The position numbers and the translations under genes were made by a program. From NCBI RefSeq assembly GCF_024298765.1, contig NZ_CP101210.1: 64,000 nucleotides of DNA; one strand, given 5' to 3'. The stretch comes from Escherichia coli. GTDB lineage: Bacteria; Pseudomonadota; Gammaproteobacteria; Enterobacterales; Enterobacteriaceae. The notes beneath the pieces are model-generated. The model was not told the origin of the DNA. It worked only from the letters and a program-made list of their open reading frames with translations, and did no database searches. Below, piece by piece: positions 1,942-58,101 of the stretch (the stretch's first letter is position 1; each line of letters opens with the position of its first letter).

Positions 1942-2026
1942 TGGTGCCGAAGGCCGGACTCGAACCGGCACGTATTTCTACGGTTGATTTTGAATCAACT
2001 GCGTCTACCGATTTCGCCACTTCGGC
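1942..2026 (-). tRNA. leuX: tRNA-Leu (anticodon CAA)
   Basis: Reverse complement reads GCCGAAGTGGCGAAATCGGTAGACGCAGTTGATTCAAAATCAACCGTAGAAATACGTGCCGGTTCGAGTCCGGCCTTCGGCACCA; cloverleaf with CAA anticodon and 3' CCA. Confidence 0.95.
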
Positions 2027-5033: not shown

Positions 5034-6116
5034 TTACGATTTTCTCATTAACAGCCACAGGCTGATTAAGAAGAAGCTGGCGCTTGGCAGCAACGCGCCG
5101 ATAATCGGCGGGATGCCGTAAACCAATGTCAGCGGGCCGAAGATCTGGTCCAGTACGTAGAAGACAAAACCGAAGCTGATACCGGTGACCACACGCACGC
5201 CCATCGGTACGCTACGCAGTGGGCCAAAGATAAACGACAGCGCCATCAGCATCATCACCGCCACGGATAGAGGCTGGAAGATTTTGCTCCACATGTTGAG
5301 TTGATAACGTCCGGCATCCTGACCGCTCGACTTTAGATACTTCACATAGTTGTGCAAACCACTGATGGAGAGTGCATCCGGGTCCAGCGCCACCACGCCC
5401 AGTTTGTCTGGCGTGAGGTTGGTTTTCCAGGTGCCGCTCACCGTCTGCGAACCGGTGATCTGTTTCGGATTGGTCAGATCAGATTCATCAACCTGCGACA
5501 GACGCCAGACTTTATGTTCCGGGTCAAACTTCGCGGTAGCGGCATAGCGTACGGATTGCAGACGACGATTCTCGTTAAAGGCATAAATACTGATGCCACC
5601 TAACTCTTCGTCACCTTTAACCCGCTCAATGTAGACGAAGTTGTTGCCATCTTTCGCCCATAAGCCTTGCTGAGTGGAGAGTAACGAGCCGCCGTACATC
5701 GCCTGGGCACGGTAGTTACGCGCCATCTGCTCGCCCTGCGGCGCGACCCATTCACCAATCGCCATCGTCAGTAAGACCAGCGGAATGGCGGTTTTCATCA
5801 CCGACAGCGCCACCTGCATACGGGTAAAACCAGAAGCCTGCATCACCACCAGTTCGCTGCGCTGCGCCAGCATCCCAAGACCAAGCAACGCCCCAAGCAG
5901 AGCCGCCATCGGGAAGAAGATCTGCACATCTTTCGGCACGCTCAGCAAGGTATACATTCCTGCGCCTAACGCGTCGTAACTCCCCTGCCCGGCTTTTTTC
6001 AGCTGATCGACAAATTTGATAATGCCCGACAGCGACACCAGCATGAACAGCGTCATCATGATGGTGGTAAAAATAGTTTTACCGATATAGCGGTCAAGTA
6101 CGCCAAAAGGTTGCAT
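5034..6116 (-). CDS. lptG: LPS export ABC permease LptG
   Basis: MQPFGVLDRYIGKTIFTTIMMTLFMLVSL...; 360 aa; overlaps the lptF stop. Confidence 0.93.
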   Translation of the reverse strand: MQPFGVLDRYIGKTIFTTIMMTLFMLVSLSGIIKFVDQLKKAGQGSYDALGAGMYTLLSVPKDVQIFFPMAALLGALLGLGMLAQRSELVVMQASGFTRMQVALSVMKTAIPLVLLTMAIGEWVAPQGEQMARNYRAQAMYGGSLLSTQQGLWAKDGNNFVYIERVKGDEELGGISIYAFNENRRLQSVRYAATAKFDPEHKVWRLSQVDESDLTNPKQITGSQTVSGTWKTNLTPDKLGVVALDPDALSISGLHNYVKYLKSSGQDAGRYQLNMWSKIFQPLSVAVMMLMALSFIFGPLRSVPMGVRVVTGISFGFVFYVLDQIFGPLTLVYGIPPIIGALLPSASFFLISLWLLMRKS

Positions 6117-7479: not shown

Positions 7480-8994
<1,515 letters not shown>

Positions 8995-22893: not shown

Positions 22894-25590
22894 TTACTGC
22901 CAACCGTAACGACGGCTATAGAACCCTTTCACCAACTGGGTTAACGTCATATACCCTGCCAGAATCGCAACCAGCCACGGGAAATAGCTCAACGGCAGCG
23001 CCTGCAGCTGCAGATAACTGGCCAGCGGTGAAAACGGCAATACAATCCCGACAATCATCACGATCACGGTCATGATCATTAACGGCCACGATGCACAGCT
23101 CTGAATAAACGGTACACGACGGGTGCGGATCATATGCACAATCAGCGTTTGCGACAGTAATCCCACCACAAACCAGCCCGACTGGAACAGCGTTTGCGTT
23201 TCCGGCGTGTTGGCATGGAATACCCACCACATCAGGCAAAACGTCAGAATATCGAAGATCGAGCTGATCGGTCCGAAGAAGATCATAAAGCGCCCCAGAT
23301 CCGCCGGATTCCAACGCTGCGGCTTTTGAATTTGCTCGTCGTCGACGTTATCAAACGGGATCGCCACCTGTGACACATCGTACAGCAGGTTCTGAATAAG
23401 CAAGTGTAACGGCAACATCGGCAGGAAGGGCAAGAAAGCACTCGCCACCAGCACGCTGAACACATTACCGAAGTTAGAGCTCGCCGTCATTTTGATGTAT
23501 TTCAGCATGTTGGCGAAAGTGCGACGTCCCTCAATAACCCCCTCTTCCAGCACCATCAGGCTTTTTTCCAGCAGGATGATATCAGCCGCTTCACGGGCAA
23601 TATCTACCGCGCCGTCCACAGAAATGCCGATATCCGCAGCACGTAAGGCGGGCGCATCATTAATACCATCGCCCATAAAGCCAACCACATGCCCTTCGCG
23701 CTTCAGTAAGGTCACAATGCGTTCTTTATGCATCGGCGTCAGGCGAGCAAACAGCGTGGTGCGCTGTGCGAGATTTGCCAGTTCGTCGTCAGATAGCGTT
23801 TCAATATCACTACCAATGACCACCTCTCCCGCGTCCAGCCCCACTTCATGGCACACTTTCGCTGCAACTAACTCACTGTCGCCAGTAAGGATTTTTACGG
23901 TAATTCCACTCGCTTTTAATGCCTTCAGTGCCGGAGCAGTTGTCTCTTTGGGCGGATCAAGGAAAGCAATATATCCTTCGAGGATCAGGTCGGATTCATC
24001 CGCCCGCTGGTAATCTCCTTCACGCGCTGGCAGGTATTTCGTCGCCACCGCAACCACGCGCAGCCCCTGACGATTCAGCGTATCAGTAACCCGCTTAATC
24101 TTACGCAGCATGATGTCATCGAGCGGCACAATCTCGCCATTGTGACGCACCTGCGAACACACATTGAGGATTTCCTGCAATGCACCTTTGCAAACCAGCT
24201 GATGGTGTTCGGTATTTTCTGCCACTACCACCGACATCCGACGACGCTCGAAATCAAACGGAATCTCATCAATTTTTTGCCAACGGCTGGCCAGCGAACG
24301 CGCTGACTCTTCATCCGTACCTTCGAGCACCGCGGTATCAAGCAGGTTTTTAAGTCCGGTCTGGTAATGACTGTTCAACCACGCGCTATGCAGCACGCGT
24401 TCGCTGGTTTTACCGGAGATATCGGTATGATTCTCCAGCACAATTTTATCCTGTGTCAGGGTGCCGGTTTTATCAGTGCACAGAATATCCATTGCGCCAA
24501 AGTTCTGAATGGCATCCAGATGCTTGACGATCACTTTCTGTTTCGACAGCTTTACTGCGCCGCGCGCCAGCGTCGAGGTAACAATCATCGGCAACATTTC
24601 TGGCGTTAAGCCTACCGCGACCGAAAGCGCAAACAGTGCCGCTTCCCACCAGTCGCCTTTGGTGTAACCGTTGATAAGCAACACCACCGGAGCCATCACC
24701 AGCATAAAGCGAATCAGCAGCATACTGACGCGGCTAATCCCTTGCTGAAAGGCATTCGGCTCGCTTTCCTGCTCACTAACACGCCCCGCCAGTTGACCAA
24801 ACCAGGTATTGGCCCCTGTGGCAATCACCATTGCTTGTGCCGTACCGCTCACCACGGTGGTGCCCATAAAACACAGGGTGTCGCACTCCAGCGGATTGCT
24901 GTGCTCCGGCTGGCGAGTAGTAGCGGCTTTTTCCACGGGCAGAGACTCACCGGTTAACGACGCCTGAGCGACGAACAGATCCCGCGCCTGCAAGATACGT
25001 AAATCTGCCGGGATCATATCCCCCGCCGCCAGTTTTATAATATCGCCGGGCACCAGCTGGTCGATCGGGATCTCCAGCCAGCCATTTTCGCCTTTGTCGT
25101 TAATTACGCGCAGCACCGTCGCGGTATTGCTGACCATCGCTTTCAGGGCATCTGCCGCTTTAGTGGAACGTGCTTCCTGAATAAAGTTCAGCAACGTAGA
25201 AATAGCGACCATTAGCGCGATAACGCCCGCGGCAAATAAATCTTCCGTGGCGTAAGAAATAGCGCCGAGAATGGTGAGTAAAATATTAAAGGGGTTGCGA
25301 TAGCAGACCCATAAATGTACCCACCACGGCGACGGTTGTTGTGCGGGTAATTTATTTTCACCATGTTGTTCGCGGGCAGATTCCACTTCCGCCTGATTTA
25401 ATCCTTCCGGATGGGTGTCGAACGTTTTCCACAATTCTTCTTCGGGCATCACCGCCATTTTCAGGCAATGCGCACTTAAGGACGGCGGGACCGCCGTATT
25501 CACTGTCTGCTGCGCGCCAGGCAATGGATCGCGATGAACCAGACGGGAAGGTAAATGGCGAATGAACCGGGTAAAAATTTCTTTAAACAT
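22894..25590 (-). CDS. mgtA: Mg2+-importing P-type ATPase
   Basis: 898 aa; CTDKTGTLT phosphorylation motif, TGD and GDGINDAPAL motifs. Confidence 0.95.
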   Translation of the reverse strand: MFKEIFTRFIRHLPSRLVHRDPLPGAQQTVNTAVPPSLSAHCLKMAVMPEEELWKTFDTHPEGLNQAEVESAREQHGENKLPAQQPSPWWVHLWVCYRNPFNILLTILGAISYATEDLFAAGVIALMVAISTLLNFIQEARSTKAADALKAMVSNTATVLRVINDKGENGWLEIPIDQLVPGDIIKLAAGDMIPADLRILQARDLFVAQASLTGESLPVEKAATTRQPEHSNPLECDTLCFMGTTVVSGTAQAMVIATGANTWFGQLAGRVSEQESEPNAFQQGISRVSMLLIRFMLVMAPVVLLINGYTKGDWWEAALFALSVAVGLTPEMLPMIVTSTLARGAVKLSKQKVIVKHLDAIQNFGAMDILCTDKTGTLTQDKIVLENHTDISGKTSERVLHSAWLNSHYQTGLKNLLDTAVLEGTDEESARSLASRWQKIDEIPFDFERRRMSVVVAENTEHHQLVCKGALQEILNVCSQVRHNGEIVPLDDIMLRKIKRVTDTLNRQGLRVVAVATKYLPAREGDYQRADESDLILEGYIAFLDPPKETTAPALKALKASGITVKILTGDSELVAAKVCHEVGLDAGEVVIGSDIETLSDDELANLAQRTTLFARLTPMHKERIVTLLKREGHVVGFMGDGINDAPALRAADIGISVDGAVDIAREAADIILLEKSLMVLEEGVIEGRRTFANMLKYIKMTASSNFGNVFSVLVASAFLPFLPMLPLHLLIQNLLYDVSQVAIPFDNVDDEQIQKPQRWNPADLGRFMIFFGPISSIFDILTFCLMWWVFHANTPETQTLFQSGWFVVGLLSQTLIVHMIRTRRVPFIQSCASWPLMIMTVIVMIVGIVLPFSPLASYLQLQALPLSYFPWLVAILAGYMTLTQLVKGFYSRRYGWQ

Positions 25591-25850
25591 AAGGAGTCCC
25601 TCCGTACTGTCTGAAACAGTACAGAAATGTCTTCGGCGTGGCGAAGCCTTACCTGAAGGTAATAAAGCTGAGCTGGGACGTTAAAACGTCACGGCCTTAC
25701 GCATCCGGTAACGCCGTGAAAAGACGGGCTTACCGGAAAAGTTTTAATCTCCGTCGAGGGAGAGGCGTGGGATCAGGTTCCATATAACCTCCGGTAAGTG
25801 AAAAAAGTGCCGCAAATAATAAGGAGAATCCAATAATATTCGTAGCATCT
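25591..25850 (-). promoter_or_regulatory. mgtA 5' leader (Mg2+/proline-sensing leader containing mgtL)
   Basis: About 260 nt between the predicted promoter and the mgtA start; contains the proline-rich mgtL ORF. Confidence 0.65.
25730..25783 (-). CDS. mgtL: mgtA leader peptide
   Basis: 17 codons, ATGGAACCTGATCCCACGCCTCTCCCTCGACGGAGATTAAAACTTTTCCGGTAA, giving [17 protein letters not shown]. Confidence 0.85.
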
Positions 25851-25876
25851 ATGGCGATATAATACCTGCTGGCAAC

Positions 25877-25893
25877 TAAACCAACGATAAACC
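25877..25893 (-). promoter_or_regulatory. PhoP box upstream of mgtA
   Basis: Minus strand reads GGTTTATCGTTGGTTTA, a direct repeat of GGTTTA separated by 5 nt, followed by a -10-like TATTAT. Confidence 0.7.
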
Positions 25894-25967: not shown

Positions 25968-26915
25968 ATGCAAAATCGGCTGACCATCAAAGACATCGCG
26001 CGCTTAAGCGGCGTGGGGAAATCTACGGTTTCCCGGGTGCTGAATAACGAAAGCGGCGTGAGCCAGCGCACGCGCGAGCGTGTTGAAGCAGTGATGAATC
26101 AGCATGGATTTTCCCCTTCCCGCTCTGCGCGCGCTATGCGTGGTCAAAGCGATAAAGTGGTCGCCATCATTGTTACCCGTCTGGATTCGTTGTCAGAAAA
26201 TCTCGCCGTTCAAACCATGCTGCCAGCGTTCTATGAACAAGGTTACGACCCAATCATGATGGAAAGTCAGTTTTCCCCGCAATTAGTTGCCGAACATTTG
26301 GGGGTGCTGAAACGGCGTAATATCGACGGCGTAGTGCTGTTCGGTTTTACCGGCATAACAGAAGAAATGTTAGCCCACTGGCAGTCATCGCTGGTTCTGC
26401 TGGCGCGTGACGCAAAAGGCTTTGCTTCGGTCTGTTATGACGACGAAGGGGCAATCAAGATCCTGATGCAACGGCTGTATGACCAGGGGCATCGTAATAT
26501 CAGTTATCTCGGCGTGCCGCATAGTGACGTGACGACCGGGAAGCGACGTCACGAAGCCTACCTGGCGTTCTGCAAAGCGCATAAACTGCATCCCGTTGCC
26601 GCTCTGCCAGGCCTTGCTATGAAGCAAGGCTATGAGAACGTAGCAAAAGTGATTACGCCTGAAACTACCGCCTTACTGTGCGCAACCGACACGCTGGCAC
26701 TTGGCGCAAGTAAATACCTGCAAGAGCAACGCATCGACACCTTGCAACTGGCGAGCGTCGGTAATACGCCATTAATGAAATTCCTCCATCCGGAGATCGT
26801 CACCGTAGATCCTGGTTACGCCGAAGCTGGACGCCAGGCGGCCTGCCAATTGATCGCACAGGTAACCGGGCGCAGCGAACCGCAACAAATCATCATCCCC
26901 GCCACCCTGTCCTGA
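25968..26915 (+). CDS. treR: Trehalose operon repressor (LacI family)
   Basis: 315 aa; N-terminal HTH LTIKDIARLSGVGKSTVSRVLNN. Confidence 0.93.
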   Translation: MQNRLTIKDIARLSGVGKSTVSRVLNNESGVSQRTRERVEAVMNQHGFSPSRSARAMRGQSDKVVAIIVTRLDSLSENLAVQTMLPAFYEQGYDPIMMESQFSPQLVAEHLGVLKRRNIDGVVLFGFTGITEEMLAHWQSSLVLLARDAKGFASVCYDDEGAIKILMQRLYDQGHRNISYLGVPHSDVTTGKRRHEAYLAFCKAHKLHPVAALPGLAMKQGYENVAKVITPETTALLCATDTLALGASKYLQEQRIDTLQLASVGNTPLMKFLHPEIVTVDPGYAEAGRQAACQLIAQVTGRSEPQQIIIPATLS

Positions 26916-27033: not shown

Positions 27034-28455
27034 ATGATGAGCAAAATAAACCAAACGGATATCGATCGGTTGATTGAACTGGTCGGCGGGCGCGGCAATA
27101 TTGCGACGGTGAGCCACTGTATTACTCGCCTGCACTTTGTCCTCAACCAACCGGCCAATGCCAGACCGAAAGAAATTGAGCAACTCCCCATGGTGAAAGG
27201 CTGTTTCACCAATGCCGGGCAATTTCAGGTGGTGATTGGCACCAACGTGGGTGATTACTATCAAGCACTAATAGCGTCAACCGGACAGGCGCAGGTTGAT
27301 AAAGAGCAGGTAAAAAAAGCCGCCCGGCAGAATATGAAATGGCATGAGCAGTTGATCTCTCATTTCGCGGAGATCTTCTTCCCGTTGCTGCCCGCGTTGA
27401 TTAGCGGCGGTTTGATCCTCGGTTTTCGCAATGTGATCGGCGATTTGCCCATGAGCAACGGTCAAACGCTGGCGCAAATGTACCCTTCCCTGCAAACGAT
27501 CTACGATTTTCTGTGGTTGATCGGTGAAGCGATCTTCTTCTACCTGCCGGTCGGGATTTGCTGGTCAGCGGTGAAAAAAATGGGCGGCACGCCGATCCTT
27601 GGTATCGTGCTTGGCGTGACACTGGTTTCCCCCCAGCTGATGAACGCTTATCTGCTCGGGCAGCAGCTGCCGGAAGTGTGGGACTTTGGCATGTTCAGCA
27701 TCGCCAAAGTGGGCTATCAGGCGCAGGTGATCCCGGCACTGTTAGCCGGGCTGGCGCTGGGCGTTATTGAAACTCGCCTTAAACGCATCGTACCGGATTA
27801 CCTCTATCTGGTGGTGGTGCCCGTCTGTTCGCTGATCCTCGCGGTGTTCCTCGCCCATGCGCTGATTGGTCCGTTTGGTCGCATGATTGGCGATGGCGTT
27901 GCCTTTGCGGTACGTCACCTGATGACCGGCAGCTTTGCTCCGATTGGTGCGGCATTGTTTGGCTTCCTGTACGCGCCGCTGGTGATCACCGGCGTACACC
28001 AGACCACCCTTGCTATTGATTTGCAGATGATTCAAAGCATGGGTGGCACGCCAGTGTGGCCGCTGATTGCGCTGTCGAATATCGCTCAGGGCTCCGCCGT
28101 GATAGGCATTATCATTTCCAGCCGCAAGCACAATGAACGCGAGATCTCCGTGCCTGCCGCTATCTCCGCCTGGCTTGGGGTCACTGAGCCTGCAATGTAC
28201 GGCATCAACCTGAAATATCGCTTCCCGATGCTGTGCGCGATGATTGGTTCTGGTCTGGCAGGATTGCTATGCGGCCTGAACGGCGTTATGGCGAATGGCA
28301 TCGGCGTAGGCGGCCTGCCGGGAATTCTCTCGATTCAACCGAGCTACTGGCAGGTGTTTGCGCTGGCAATGGCTATCGCCATCATCATCCCGATTGTACT
28401 CACCTCGTTTATCTATCAGCGGAAATACCGCCTGGGCACGCTGGACATTGTTTAA
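27034..28455 (+). CDS. treB: PTS trehalose-specific EIIBC
   Basis: 473 aa; EIIB cysteine motif (VSHCITRLHF) followed by a multi-span EIIC domain. Confidence 0.94.
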   Translation: MMSKINQTDIDRLIELVGGRGNIATVSHCITRLHFVLNQPANARPKEIEQLPMVKGCFTNAGQFQVVIGTNVGDYYQALIASTGQAQVDKEQVKKAARQNMKWHEQLISHFAEIFFPLLPALISGGLILGFRNVIGDLPMSNGQTLAQMYPSLQTIYDFLWLIGEAIFFYLPVGICWSAVKKMGGTPILGIVLGVTLVSPQLMNAYLLGQQLPEVWDFGMFSIAKVGYQAQVIPALLAGLALGVIETRLKRIVPDYLYLVVVPVCSLILAVFLAHALIGPFGRMIGDGVAFAVRHLMTGSFAPIGAALFGFLYAPLVITGVHQTTLAIDLQMIQSMGGTPVWPLIALSNIAQGSAVIGIIISSRKHNEREISVPAAISAWLGVTEPAMYGINLKYRFPMLCAMIGSGLAGLLCGLNGVMANGIGVGGLPGILSIQPSYWQVFALAMAIAIIIPIVLTSFIYQRKYRLGTLDIV

Positions 28456-35942: not shown

Positions 35943-36047
35943 TGCCGGATGCGGTGCACCTGTAGGCCTGATAAGACGCATCAAGCGTCGCATCAGGCAC
36001 TATGCTCAAATGCCGGATGCGGCGTGAACGCCTTATCCGGCCTACAC
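35943..36047. repeat. REP/BIME cluster
   Basis: tgccggatgcggtg..., gcctgataagacgcatcaagcgtcgcatcaggc and gccggatgcggcgtgaacgccttatccggcctac. Confidence 0.75.
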
Positions 36048-42203: not shown

Positions 42204-42288
42204 GTAGGCATGATAAGACGCGGTAAGCGTCGCATCAGGCTTCAGCGCACCACCGCCGGATGCGGCGCGAGCGCCTTATCCGGCCTAC
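42204..42288. repeat. REP/BIME cluster
   Basis: gcatgataagacgcggtaagcgtcgcatcaggc and gccggatgcggcgcgagcgccttatccggcctac. Confidence 0.75.
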
Positions 42289-51233: not shown

Positions 51234-51334
51234 TGCCGGATACGGCGTAAACGCCTTGCCCGGCCTACAAAATCGTCCAAATTCAATATATTGCGGGGAC
51301 TGCGTAGGCCTGTTCGGCATAGCGCATCAGGCAG
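51234..51334. repeat. REP/BIME cluster
   Basis: tgccggatacggcgtaaacgccttgcccggcctac and gcgtaggcctgttcggcatagcgcatcaggc. Confidence 0.75.
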
Positions 51335-51509
51335 TTTTTCATTTTTCAGCTGTCTGAATTTTAACCCTCTGGCGGCTTTACAGTACCTTACGCTATACTA
51401 GCCACTGAAAATGCCGGTTCACTTTCTTCGAATCGGCTTTCAATGTGTATTTCACACAAATTAATCAACTTCCCCTTCCGAGGATCTGGCCTGAAAGGTC
51501 GGATAAGAT

Positions 51510-55968: not shown

Positions 55969-56157
55969 TTCTCCACCTCGTCTCTGTGAGCGGTGTTAAC
56001 TTATTGTTTTACTTATACCCTATCGTTAATGAATGCGCCAACTGTGATAGTGTCATCATTTTCAAAGCGTAAAATTGTGGCATTCTTCACTGTTCTATAA
56101 GTAAGACGTTTATTCTCCCTTTTCTTTCGTATTCCCGATGATAAAAGGATGTCCCTG

Positions 56158-58101
56158 ATGATTAAGTTTAGCGCAACGCTCCTGGCCACGCTGATTGCCG
56201 CCAGTGTGAATGCAGCGACGGTCGATCTGCGTATCATGGAAACCACTGATCTGCATAGCAACATGATGGATTTCGATTATTACAAAGACACCGCCACGGA
56301 AAAATTCGGACTGGTACGTACGGCAAGCCTGATTAACGATGCCCGCAATGAAGTGAAAAACAGCGTACTGGTCGATAACGGCGATTTGATTCAGGGGAGT
56401 CCGCTGGCAGATTACATGTCGGCGAAAGGATTAAAAGCAGGTGATATTCACCCAGTGTATAAGGCATTAAATACGCTGGACTATACCGTCGGCACGCTTG
56501 GCAACCATGAGTTTAACTACGGTCTGGATTACCTGAAAAATGCGCTGGCGGGAGCGAAATTCCCTTATGTAAATGCCAACGTCATTGACGCCAGAACCAA
56601 ACAGCCAATGTTTACACCGTATTTAATTAAAGACACCGAAGTGGTCGATAAAGACGGAAAAAAACAGACGCTGAAGATTGGCTATATTGGCGTCGTACCG
56701 CCGCAAATCATGGGCTGGGATAAAGCTAATTTATCCGGGAAAGTGACGGTGAATGATATTACCGAAACCGTGCGCAAATACGTGCCTGAAATGCGCGAGA
56801 AAGGTGCCGATGTCGTTGTCGTTCTGGCACATTCCGGGCTGTCTGCCGATCCGTATAAAGTGATGGCGGAAAACTCAGTTTATTACCTCAGTGAAATTCC
56901 GGGCGTTAACGCCATTATGTTTGGCCATGCTCACGCCGTTTTCCCAGGTAAAGATTTTGCTGATATCGAAGGAGCTGATATCGCGAAAGGCACGCTGAAT
57001 GGTGTTCCGGCGGTAATGCCAGGCATGTGGGGCGATCATCTTGGTGTGGTCGACTTACAACTCAGTAATGACAGCGGTAAATGGCAGGTAACACAGGCGA
57101 AAGCGGAAGCACGACCGATTTACGACATCGCTAATAAAAAATCCCTCGCGGCGGAAGACAGCAAGCTGGTAGAAACACTCAAAGCCGATCACGATGCCAC
57201 ACGCCAGTTCGTCAGCAAGCCAATCGGTAAATCTGCCGACAATATGTATAGCTATCTGGCACTGGTGCAGGACGATCCGACCGTGCAGGTGGTGAACAAC
57301 GCGCAAAAAGCGTATGTCGAGCATTACATTCAGGGCGATCCGGATCTGGCAAAACTGCCAGTGCTTTCAGCTGCCGCACCGTTTAAAGTTGGTGGTCGCA
57401 AAAATGACCCGGCAAGCTATGTGGAGGTGGAAAAAGGTCAGTTGACCTTCCGTAATGCCGCCGATCTTTATCTCTATCCCAATACGCTGATTGTGGTGAA
57501 AGCCAGCGGTAAAGAGGTGAAAGAGTGGCTGGAGTGCTCCGCCGGACAGTTTAACCAGATTGATCCTAACAGCACGAAACCACAGTCACTCATCAACTGG
57601 GATGGTTTCCGCACCTATAACTTTGATGTGATTGATGGTGTGAATTATCAGATTGATGTTACCCAGCCTGCCCGTTATGACGGCGAGTGCCAGATGGTTA
57701 ATGCCAATGCGGAAAGGATTAAGAACCTGACCTTTAATGGCAAGCCAATTGATCCGAACGCCATGTTCCTCGTTGCCACCAATAACTATCGCGCTTACGG
57801 CGGCAAATTTGCCGGTACGGGCGACAGCCATATCGCTTTTGCTTCACCGGATGAGAACCGCTCGGTGCTGGCAGCGTGGATTGCTGATGAGTCGAAACGT
57901 GCGGGGGAAATTCACCCGGCGGCAGATAACAACTGGCGTTTAGCACCAATAGCTGGCGATAAGAAACTGGATATCCGTTTCGAAACCTCTCCATCAGATA
58001 AAGCCGCGGCGTTTATTAAAGAGAAAGGGCAATATCCGATGAATAAAGTCGCGACCGATGATATCGGGTTTGCGATTTATCAGGTGGATTTGAGTAAGTA
58101 A
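56158..58101 (+). CDS. cpdB: 2',3'-cyclic-nucleotide 2'-phosphodiesterase / 3'-nucleotidase
   Basis: [35 protein letters not shown] signal peptide plus metallophosphatase domain; 647 aa from internal Met. Confidence 0.93.

What the first reader, a model, noticed from the sequence alone, without database searches (positions are those of the whole stretch)
25591..25893. Intact mgtA regulatory leader: PhoP box, long 5' leader and mgtL
The minus strand carries GGTTTATCGTTGGTTTA, a PhoP direct repeat, about 20 bp upstream of a -10-like element. A leader of about 260 nt follows, containing the 17-codon proline-rich mgtL ORF ([17 protein letters not shown]). This is the known Mg2+- and proline-responsive attenuation architecture and is a good internal control for regulatory calls in the window.
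Basis: partly seen in the sequence, partly recalled or inferred. Interest (0 to 1): 0.25.

Follow-up and report, generated by a model that had tools for sequence, protein, structure and literature searches.

The report
E. coli mgtA magnesium-sensing leader
This is the well-known control region in front of the E. coli magnesium-pump gene mgtA (a PhoP-activated promoter, the short mgtL leader peptide and a switching RNA leader); it is ordinary, apart from a rare one-base deletion next to the spot where transcription normally pauses and stops.

Summary
The minus strand carries a perfect PhoP box (25893..25877) and a -10 hexamer, TATTAT, 12 nt further downstream. A leader of about 262 nt follows. 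It contains mgtL (25783..25730, [17 protein letters not shown]). The intact 898-aa mgtA starts at 25590.

Rfam's Magnesium-II model matches 25798..25683 at 125.8 bits against a threshold of 40. The region is 100% identical to annotated mgtL/mgtA/treR loci and occurs in 5424 of 5426 complete E. coli genomes.

Stem-loops A and B and the alternative stem-loop C are all predicted. An alignment of 42 distinct Enterobacteriaceae leaders supports them: 95.9% of cells are paired, and stem B shows compensatory changes.

Two corrections apply:
- The PhoP box lies 12 bp from the -10 hexamer, not about 20 bp.
- "Intact" needs a caveat. This allele lacks the T of GCC[T]GAAG, between 25635 and 25634. That T is present in 24 of 24 other aligned Enterobacteriaceae leaders and in about 99% of E. 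coli genomes. It lies 4 nt downstream of the homologue of the Salmonella U218 pause and Rho-termination site. It is also part of a conserved distal hairpin.

About 1% of genomes carry the deletion, and most of them are poultry isolates. Any effect on regulation is untested.

The parts
25877..25893 (-). PhoP box, direct repeat GGTTTA-TCGTT-GGTTTA
   Evidence: Unique in the window with 0 expected by chance. The 17-mer is identical to the Salmonella mgtA PhoP box and to the Shigella mgtA box shown to bind PhoP by EMSA and DNase I footprinting.
25859..25864 (-). -10 hexamer TATTAT, 12 nt downstream of the PhoP box; no usable -35
   Evidence: Read from the sequence. The 12-nt spacing equals PhoP promoter architecture I. 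The sigma-70 consensus scan found no complete promoter here, which fits dependence on an activator.
25851..25852 (-). Predicted transcription start, giving a leader of 261-262 nt
   Evidence: Inferred from the Salmonella -10-to-+1 distance of 7 and its 264-nt leader and from the leader alignment. Not mapped here.
25806..25850 (-). Predicted 5' hairpin of the leader (leader nt 3-47); function unknown
   Evidence: Present in both the MFE and the centroid fold. E. coli E69 and E. whittamii have a 12-column gap (net 10 nt shorter leader) inside it.
25788..25792 (-). mgtL Shine-Dalgarno GGAGG, inside the 5' arm of stem-loop A
   Evidence: Read from the sequence. The bases are invariant or nearly so in 42 leaders.
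25730..25783 (-). mgtL, 17 codons plus stop: [17 protein letters not shown], with 4 Pro codons and the EPDP motif
   Evidence: Translation. RefSeq names it mgtL. M[DE]P[DE]P[TA]P.PR is conserved in 44 Enterobacteriaceae loci.
25729..25798 (-). Stem-loop A (OFF conformation); it encloses mgtL
   Evidence: Rfam consensus structure and MFE fold. The 11-bp outer helix is 97% paired in 42 leaders.
25691..25717 (-). Stem-loop B (OFF conformation)
   Evidence: Rfam structure. It is 98% paired, and 5 of its 10 pairs show compensatory changes. Escherichia carries one G.G mismatch.
25704..25737 (-). Alternative stem-loop C (ON conformation): the 3' arm of A (CCGGUAA) pairs with the 5' arm of B (UUACCGG)
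   Evidence: Present in the centroid fold. The fold forced into C has -35.3 kcal/mol against -39.5 for A+B. The 7-bp core is invariant and the helix is 90% paired against 13-49% in the slid controls.
25683..25798 (-). Match to Rfam RF01056 Magnesium-II
   Evidence: 125.8 bits, E = 2e-26, full length 1-115.
25665..25690 (-). Pyrimidine-rich stretch 3' of stem-loop B (GACGUUUUAACGUCCCAGCUC), a candidate rut segment; contains the derived A at 25674
   Evidence: Inferred from the description of rut sites flanking stem-loop B in corA and mgtA. GUCCCU is nearly invariant in 25 leaders and only the window has A. The A allele is exact in 179 of 5424 genomes.
25649..25662 (-). Candidate pause hairpin UUACC-UUCA-GGUAA, ending 11 nt before the pause site
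   Evidence: My inference from the statement that a canonical-size hairpin stabilises the U218 pause and from the alignment. Support across species is weak: 70% paired in the E. coli register.
25637..25638 (-). Homologue of the Salmonella U218 pause and Rho-termination site (C215|G216)
   Evidence: The K-12 Term-seq 3' end at 4467576, flagged Rho-dependent, maps to window 25638. It aligns with the U of the Salmonella GCCGU|GCCUGAAG. U218 is described. The G-10/Y-1/G+1 pause consensus is present in the sequence.
25634..25635 (-). Site of the 1-nt deletion: the T of GCC[T]GAAG is missing
   Evidence: Alignment with K-12. The T is present in 24 of 24 other leaders. The deletion allele is found in about 1% of complete E. 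coli genomes.
25631..25658 (-). Conserved distal hairpin (CUUCAGG...CCUGAAG in K-12), weakened here by the deletion
   Evidence: It is 89.6% paired against 30-42% in the slid controls, with 4 pairs showing compensatory changes. Predicted stability is -16.2 kcal/mol in K-12 and -10.6 in the window.
25599..25627 (-). Terminal hairpin whose base overlaps the mgtA Shine-Dalgarno
   Evidence: Predicted folds. It is 92% paired with 3 compensatory pairs in 25 leaders.
25598..25603 (-). mgtA Shine-Dalgarno GGAGGG
   Evidence: Read from the sequence; G-AGG- (cols 93, 95-97) are invariant and the other two positions at least 90% conserved in 25 leaders.
22894..25590 (-). mgtA, Mg2+-importing P-type ATPase, 898 aa, intact
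   Evidence: ORF. It matches K-12 MgtA at 895 of 898 residues. TIGR01524 scores 1607.8 bits against a cut-off of 610.75.
25968..26915 (+). treR, the divergent neighbour that bounds the intergenic region
   Evidence: ORF. TIGR02405 scores 590.7 bits. The arrangement is the same in K-12.

Best explanation
This is the native E. coli mgtA regulatory region, which controls the gene at two levels.

Level 1 is the promoter. Phospho-PhoP, made when PhoQ senses low periplasmic Mg2+, binds the direct repeat that overlaps the -35 position. It activates a promoter that has a good -10 and no usable -35 (class II, architecture I).

Level 2 is the transcribed leader of about 262 nt, which decides whether RNA polymerase reaches mgtA. 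When cytoplasmic Mg2+ (and proline) is sufficient, ribosomes translate the 17-codon mgtL to its stop codon, which lies in the 3' arm of stem-loop A. The RNA then adopts stem-loops A and B, the pyrimidine-rich flanks of B are exposed, polymerase pauses at C215/G216 (window 25638/25637), and transcription ends there. At low Mg2+ or low proline, ribosomes stall or fall off at the EPDP/Pro codons early in mgtL. The 3' arm of A then pairs with the 5' arm of B to form stem-loop C, and transcription continues into mgtA.

Shown here: every sequence element, the alternative folds, and their conservation and covariation. Taken from the literature: PhoP binding, the effect of mgtL translation, and Rho action. 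Inferred: the transcription start, the identity of the pause hairpin, and the equivalence of C215 with Salmonella U218.

The allele in this window also carries a lineage-specific single-base deletion 4 nt downstream of the pause site. Its effect is unknown.
For: Rfam Magnesium-II hit of 125.8 bits. The DNA is 100% identical to loci annotated mgtL/mgtA/treR and is present in 5424-5425 of 5426 complete E. coli genomes. The PhoP box, the -10 hexamer, mgtL and stem-loops A, B and C are identical to K-12. The PhoP box sequence and the 12-nt spacing match the mapped Salmonella promoter and the footprinted Shigella site. The MFE fold is A+B, the centroid fold contains C, and the fold z-score is -4.3. 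A+B and C differ by about 4 kcal/mol. In 42 distinct leaders, A+B is 95.9% paired against 35-48% in slid controls, with compensatory changes in stem B, and the core of C is invariant. The mgtL peptide motif is conserved in 44 loci. For the mechanism, the literature covers mgtL translation, EPDP ribosome destabilisation and EttA in E. coli, the Salmonella U218 pause and Rho termination, and a Rho-dependent 3' end in K-12 49 nt before the mgtA ATG. That 3' end aligns with Salmonella U218.
Against: Nothing argues against the identity of the region. On mechanism, ChIP in an E. coli rho R66S mutant gave a Rho termination score of 1.0 for mgtA, so the role of Rho in E. coli is disputed. It is also unresolved whether Mg2+ is sensed directly by the RNA or through mgtL translation. 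The transcription start was not mapped here. The primary papers on the Salmonella pause and rut sites could not be read, so the U218 mapping rests on a secondary description plus my alignment. This allele has a deletion at +4 of the pause site, in DNA reported to be needed for pause entry in Salmonella, so the distal module may not behave as it does in K-12.
Confidence: 0.95

Rival explanations
1. The leader works as described, and the lineage-specific deletion of U219 (together with U>A at 25674) measurably changes the attenuation set-point. It could do this by altering pause entry at C215 or by weakening the conserved distal hairpin. Basal mgtA expression in this mostly poultry-associated lineage would then differ from K-12.
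For: The deleted T is present in 24 of 24 other Enterobacteriaceae leaders and is paired in 23 of them within a covarying hairpin. It lies 4 nt downstream of the K-12 Rho-dependent 3' end and the U218 homologue. [quoted passage not shown] The predicted hairpin weakens from -16.2 to -10.6 kcal/mol. The allele persists in at least 51 independent complete genomes.
Against: There are no functional data. The pause consensus bases (G-10, Y-1, G+1), the candidate pause hairpin and stem-loops A, B and C are all unchanged. mgtA is intact, and the allele is maintained in a successful lineage, which also fits neutrality. How much downstream DNA the pause needs could not be checked in the primary paper.
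Confidence: 0.25
2. In E. coli the leader attenuates mgtA without Rho. Possible routes are RNA decay, translational occlusion of the mgtA Shine-Dalgarno by the terminal hairpin, or a weak intrinsic terminator. On this view the Salmonella Rho model does not transfer.
For: The Rho termination score was 1.0 for E. coli mgtA in the R66S mutant, and two later papers repeat the doubt. A conserved terminal hairpin overlaps the mgtA Shine-Dalgarno. One terminator-like hairpin was found at 25646..25631.
Against: Term-seq with bicyclomycin flags the K-12 3' end at -49 as Rho-dependent. That end aligns exactly with the Salmonella U218 site. The authors of the ChIP study themselves note that R66S may not abolish termination at every site. 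The terminator-like hit is at chance level, with 1 found and 1.0 expected.
Confidence: 0.2
3. The leader RNA senses Mg2+ directly as a riboswitch, and mgtL translation is secondary.
For: Rfam classifies the element as a magnesium riboswitch. Mg2+-dependent RNA folding alone was reported to be sufficient to modulate Rho termination in vitro.
Against: The most recent studies attribute Mg2+ sensing mainly to mgtL elongation efficiency, through Pro and acidic codons, bL31 and EttA. The strong conservation of the mgtL peptide motif is hard to explain by RNA structure alone.
Confidence: 0.3

Closest known systems
E. coli K-12 MG1655 mgtL-mgtA leader (b4702/b4242)
   Same: Same locus and the same neighbours, treR and ridA. 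The PhoP box, the -10 hexamer, mgtL and stem-loops A, B and C are identical. MgtA is identical at 895 of 898 residues.
   Different: There are five differences within the finding's span: T>C between the box and the -10, G>A at leader nt 43, T>A at 25674, deletion of T219, and G>A in the terminal hairpin, which turns a U.G pair into U-A. The deletion and the T>A change fall at positions that are nearly invariant across genera.
Salmonella enterica mgtA leader (Mg2+ sensor, mgtL, U218 Rho-dependent terminator)
   Same: Same PhoP box 17-mer, the same 12-nt spacing to the -10 and a leader of about 264 nt. The A/B/C architecture and the position of mgtL are the same. The distal GCCUGAAG element and the pause-site context are conserved.
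   Different: MgtL is MDPEPTPLPRWRIFLFR in Salmonella and [17 protein letters not shown] here. The -10 is TATGAT against TATTAT. Rho dependence is firmly established only in Salmonella. The window lacks the U of GCCUGAAG.
corA leader with corL (E. coli and Salmonella)
   Same: It has a uORF inside stem-loop A, alternative A/B and C(/D) conformations, rut sites flanking stem-loop B, and Rho-dependent attenuation that responds to Mg2+.
   Different: It is a different gene with no PhoP promoter. corL has a single proline. Termination occurs at several sites rather than one.

Membership tests
Rfam RF01056 Magnesium-II (mgtA Mg2+-responsive leader) | Scores above the family's gathering threshold over the full covariance model | tested here: met
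   125.8 bits against 40, model positions 1-115 of 115, E = 2e-26.
Rfam RF01056 Magnesium-II (mgtA Mg2+-responsive leader) | Mutually exclusive stem-loops A+B and C built from four complementary segments | tested here: met
   The MFE fold is A+B and the centroid fold contains C. The energies are -39.5 and -35.3 kcal/mol. A+B is 95.9% paired and C is 90% paired across 42 leaders.
Rfam RF01056 Magnesium-II (mgtA Mg2+-responsive leader) | Lies in the 5' leader of a Mg2+-transporting P-type ATPase gene | tested here: met
   The downstream 898-aa ORF matches TIGR01524 at 1607.8 bits and is 99% identical to K-12 MgtA.
Rfam RF01056 Magnesium-II (mgtA Mg2+-responsive leader) | Conformation and read-through respond to Mg2+ | not testable with these tools
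   Known only from the literature, for Salmonella and E. coli K-12.
mgtL leader-peptide attenuator | Short ORF with its own Shine-Dalgarno inside stem-loop A and its stop codon in the 3' arm of A | tested here: met
   GGAGG at 25792..25788, ATG at 25783, and the TAA inside CCGGUAAG.
mgtL leader-peptide attenuator | Conserved N-terminal acidic/proline motif M[DE]P[DE]P.P.P | tested here: met
   The window has MEPDPTPLP. The motif is present in all 44 Enterobacteriaceae loci recovered, although the search pattern itself required it.
mgtL leader-peptide attenuator | mgtL is translated, and its translation efficiency sets mgtA transcription | not testable with these tools
   Reported for E. coli MG1655, which has the identical mgtL sequence.
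PhoP-activated promoter, architecture I (class II) | Single (T/G)GTTTA-N5-(T/G)GTTTA repeat in direct orientation | tested here: met
   GGTTTATCGTTGGTTTA on the mgtA strand.
PhoP-activated promoter, architecture I (class II) | Box ends 12 nt upstream of the -10 hexamer and overlaps a poor -35 | tested here: met
   A 12-nt spacer is followed by TATTAT. No consensus sigma-70 promoter was detected. The geometry is as.
PhoP-activated promoter, architecture I (class II) | PhoP-P binds the box and activates transcription | not testable with these tools
   The identical sequence was bound and footprinted in Shigella flexneri.
Rho-dependent leader terminator with a regulated pause (Salmonella mgtA U218 type) | Pause and termination site with the G-10/Y-1/G+1 context at the homologous position | tested here: met
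   G206...C215|G216 is conserved. The K-12 Rho-dependent 3' end maps to C215, window 25638.
Rho-dependent leader terminator with a regulated pause (Salmonella mgtA U218 type) | Conserved DNA directly downstream of the pause site (GCCUGAAG) | tested here: not met
   The window reads GCC-GAAG. The T is present in 24 of 24 other leaders.
Rho-dependent leader terminator with a regulated pause (Salmonella mgtA U218 type) | Termination requires Rho | not testable with these tools
   The literature for E. coli conflicts: Rho-dependent by Term-seq, but not by ChIP in the R66S mutant.

The most novel reading that the evidence does not exclude
The roughly 1% of E. coli genomes that share this leader haplotype, mostly poultry-associated and including APEC O78:H4 and O2 strains, carry a natural deletion at +4 of the single pause and termination site of the mgtA leader. 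The deletion also removes a paired base from a conserved distal hairpin. If it shortens the pause or lowers termination, the lineage would express MgtA at a different Mg2+ threshold. It would also be a ready-made natural mutant for testing whether the Salmonella pause and Rho model holds in E. coli.
Probability: 0.25. Interest if true: 0.35.

Novelty: already known. Interest (0 to 1): 0.15.

Why it matters
The element is a textbook case and serves well as a positive control. A reader with no tools recovered a real promoter, uORF and riboswitch at exact coordinates.

The only new information is at the level of the allele. This copy has a rare deletion of a base that is otherwise invariant, next to the mapped pause and termination site. 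That bears on an open disagreement over whether E. coli mgtA uses the Salmonella Rho and pause mechanism, because the K-12 Rho-dependent 3' end aligns exactly with Salmonella U218.

If the deletion changes attenuation, it would mark a lineage-specific shift in Mg2+ homeostasis. If it does not, it shows that the downstream sequence requirement is looser than reported.

Tried and rejected
1. An intrinsic terminator in the leader. The scan found one weak terminator-like hairpin (25646..25631) with 1.0 expected by chance, so I did not pursue it as a mechanism.

2. A consensus sigma-70 promoter. None was found, which fits dependence on PhoP.

3. mgtL-like leaders outside Enterobacteriaceae. The peptide-pattern scan returned many Nocardia loci, among other non-enterobacterial hits. 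In all 14 Nocardia loci examined the match lies inside a long ORF (open for 163-788 codons upstream of the match), in the context ...NFFMEPDPEPAPRRER.... They are not leaders.

4. A small pause hairpin in the E. coli register. Only 70% of cells pair across species, so I keep it only as an inference.

5. Primary papers on the Salmonella rut and pause sites, on Mg2+ and proline-codon translation of mgtL in Salmonella, and on mgtL translation and termination (cited as ref 64 of PMC11282234) (PMC3325659, PMC4024889, PMC5206563, PMC3102267). None is held, so I relied on secondary descriptions.

6. An NCBIfam scan of MgtL. The peptide is below the length limit, and a doubled sequence gave nothing.

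7. A possible long-range pairing of GUCCC (25679..25675) with GGGAC in the mgtA Shine-Dalgarno region. It appears in the MFE fold, but both sides are invariant, so covariation cannot test it.

Full report
**Observation**

GGTTTATCGTTGGTTTA sits at 25893..25877. It is the only match in the 64-kb window even with two mismatches allowed, and none were expected in shuffles. The degenerate PhoP-box pattern matches without mismatch only there.

The ORF at 25783..25730 translates to [17 protein letters not shown]. An 898-aa ORF starts at 25590. One detail is imprecise: the box ends 12 nt before the -10-like hexamer TATTAT (25864..25859), not about 20 bp.

**Identity**

Rfam's Magnesium-II model (RF01056, the mgtA leader) matches 25798..25683 over its full length at 125.8 bits against a gathering score of 40. 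A 501-nt stretch around the finding is 100% identical to many complete E. coli genomes in which RefSeq annotates mgtL, mgtA and treR. It is present in 5425 of 5426 genomes.

K-12 MG1655 has the same arrangement: treR, mgtL, mgtA, ridA. The downstream protein matches K-12 MgtA at 895 of 898 residues and scores 1607.8 bits on TIGR01524. The divergent upstream gene is TreR. One strain that largely lacks the region (only the first 53 nt of the query still match) has an IS1-associated deletion running from the leader into ridA.

**Promoter**

The Salmonella mgtA promoter has been mapped. Its PhoP box is TGGTTTATCGTTGGTTTAA, lying 12 nt from the -10 hexamer TATGAT, with a -10-to-+1 distance of 7 and a 264-nt leader. 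It is classed as architecture I, class II (PMC3335776).

The window has the same 17-mer and the same 12-nt spacing. By the same geometry the start falls at 25852 (A) or 25851, giving a leader of 261-262 nt. This is inferred, not mapped. The identical box in Shigella flexneri binds PhoP-P in EMSA and in DNase I footprinting (PMC5775216). No consensus sigma-70 promoter is detectable, as expected for a promoter that depends on an activator.

**Leader RNA**

The 265-nt leader folds better than its shuffles (z = -4.3). The minimum-energy fold contains stem-loop A (25798..25729, enclosing mgtL) and stem-loop B (25717..25691). The centroid fold contains the alternative stem-loop C (25737..25704). On the core sequence, A+B gives -39.5 kcal/mol and a fold forced into C gives -35.3 kcal/mol. 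The two states are close in energy, as a switch requires.

I recovered related leaders with a scan of one genome per species, using a pattern derived from the MgtL peptide. Of the loci returned, 44 are Enterobacteriaceae mgtA leaders. In an alignment of 42 distinct sequences:
- The A+B structure is 95.9% paired, against 35-48% when the partners are slid.
- Five of the ten pairs in stem B show compensatory changes.
- The CCGGUAA/UUACCGG core of stem-loop C is invariant and 90% paired. This fits a segment that has to pair with two different partners.
- The peptide motif M[DE]P[DE]P[TA]P.PR is conserved, although the search pattern required most of it.

**Mechanism from the literature**

Translation of mgtL to its end favours A+B and termination. 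Stalling or ribosome drop-off at the EPDP/Pro codons at low Mg2+ or low proline favours C and read-through. This is described for Salmonella and for E. coli MG1655, whose mgtL is identical to the one here (PMC11552253; PMC11282234; PMC12360218).

In Salmonella, Rho terminates at a single site, U218. A long-lived pause there depends on the DNA directly downstream, on an upstream hairpin and on stem-loop B (PMC5314796). For E. coli the role of Rho is disputed. ChIP in a rho R66S mutant gave a termination score of 1.0 (PMC5499598). Term-seq found a 3' end flagged Rho-dependent 49 nt before the mgtA ATG, at K-12 4467576 (PMC7815308 supplement).

**What I add**

When full leaders are aligned, K-12 4467576 is leader nucleotide C215, which is window 25638. 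It is the exact homologue of the U in the Salmonella GCCGU|GCCUGAAG. That U is U218 if the 264-nt numbering is applied, and the G-10/Y-1/G+1 pause context is present in both species. The mapped E. coli 3' end therefore coincides with the Salmonella pause and termination site, which supports conservation of the mechanism.

**The caveat on "intact"**

Against K-12, the promoter core, mgtL and stem-loops A, B and C are identical, but the allele has five differences. Two of them fall at positions that are nearly invariant across genera.

The first is a deletion. The window reads GCC-GAAG where K-12 and 24 of 24 other Enterobacteriaceae leaders read GCCTGAAG. The missing T lies between 25635 and 25634, four nucleotides downstream of C215.
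- That T pairs (A-U or G-U) in 23 of 24 sequences, within a distal hairpin.
- The hairpin is 89.6% paired against 30-42% in slid controls, and four of its pairs show compensatory changes.
- The deletion lowers the hairpin's predicted stability from -16.2 to -10.6 kcal/mol.

The second is at 25674, where the near-invariant GUCCCUG reads GUCCCAG. That allele is exact in 179 genomes.

The complete 273-nt leader is identical in 51 complete genomes, and about seven more carry the deletion plus one SNP. That is roughly 1% of 5424 genomes. Thirty of the 51 come from poultry, including APEC O78:H4 and APEC O2-211 strains. The deletion is therefore a real lineage marker and not a sequencing error. Whether it changes pausing or termination cannot be decided by computation.

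**Other structure**

A terminal hairpin (25627..25599) overlaps the mgtA Shine-Dalgarno. It is 92% paired, with three compensatory pairs. A candidate pause hairpin (25662..25649) ends 11 nt before C215, but its cross-species support is weak.

**Verdict**

The finding is correct and the element is already known, so it scores low on novelty. It is a valid internal control for promoter, uORF and riboswitch calls. The rare deletion beside the pause site is the only feature that merits a follow-up experiment.

Noticed in passing
window 25634-25635 (-) and 25674 (-): The leader haplotype is rare. A 1-nt deletion of an otherwise invariant T occurs in about 1% of complete E. coli genomes, mostly poultry isolates. 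A T>A change in the near-invariant GUCCCUG occurs in about 3%.
   Followed up: yes
window 25724 (-), equivalent to K-12 4467490: Published Term-seq data list a second strong 3' end 6 nt after the mgtL stop codon, right after stem-loop A (GCCCGU|CUUUU). I did not establish whether it comes from termination, pausing or processing.
   Followed up: no
window 25743-25751 (-): mgtL has three consecutive arginine codons, CGA CGG AGA. From general knowledge all three are rare in E. coli. Salmonella has R-W-R at these positions.
   Followed up: no
window 25675-25679 with 25596-25600 (-): The invariant GUCCC just after stem-loop B can pair with GGGAC at the mgtA Shine-Dalgarno in the MFE fold. Both sides are invariant, so covariation cannot test the pairing.
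   Followed up: partly
L068 (E. coli E69) and L043 (E. whittamii), leader 5' hairpin: These leaders have a 12-column gap (the TCCTTATTATTT segment; net 10 nt shorter, 253 vs 263 nt leader) in the 5' hairpin upstream of stem-loop A, so the PhoP box lies 100 nt rather than 110 nt before the mgtL ATG.
   Followed up: no
L123 (E. coli GCU-H1, NZ_CP178558.1): In this one complete genome, an IS1 sits next to a deletion that removes the leader, mgtA and part of ridA. Only the promoter-proximal 53 nt remain.
   Followed up: partly
E. coli genome searches: Three matches to the mgtA leader lie on records labelled as plasmids. I did not examine them.
   Followed up: no
L002 (E. coli 2014C-3338): The strain whose leader is 100% identical to the window has treB annotated as frameshifted. 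In the window, treB (27034..28455, +) is an intact 473-aa ORF.
   Followed up: partly
window 1942-2026 (-): A tRNA-Leu(CAA) gene, probably leuX by its position relative to mgtA. leuX is a known integration hot spot for genomic islands (general knowledge).
   Followed up: partly
window 8041-8235 (-), 56035-56157 (-), 51269-51448 (+), 35965-36042 (-), 42207-42285 (-): Other Rfam hits above the gathering threshold: Ysr276, ES239, ES036 with STnc450, and two naRNA4 (REP-type) elements.
   Followed up: no
window 56609-56625 (+): TGTTTACACCGTATTTA matches the PhoP-box pattern with one mismatch. This is at chance level: 2 matches found, 0.95 expected.
   Followed up: no
L023, L026, L032 and 11 other Nocardia loci: A conserved ...NFFMEPDPEPAPRRER(D/E/R-rich)... 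segment lies inside a long Nocardia ORF (open for 163-788 codons upstream of the match) and matched the MgtL peptide pattern. It is coding sequence, not a leader.
   Followed up: yes
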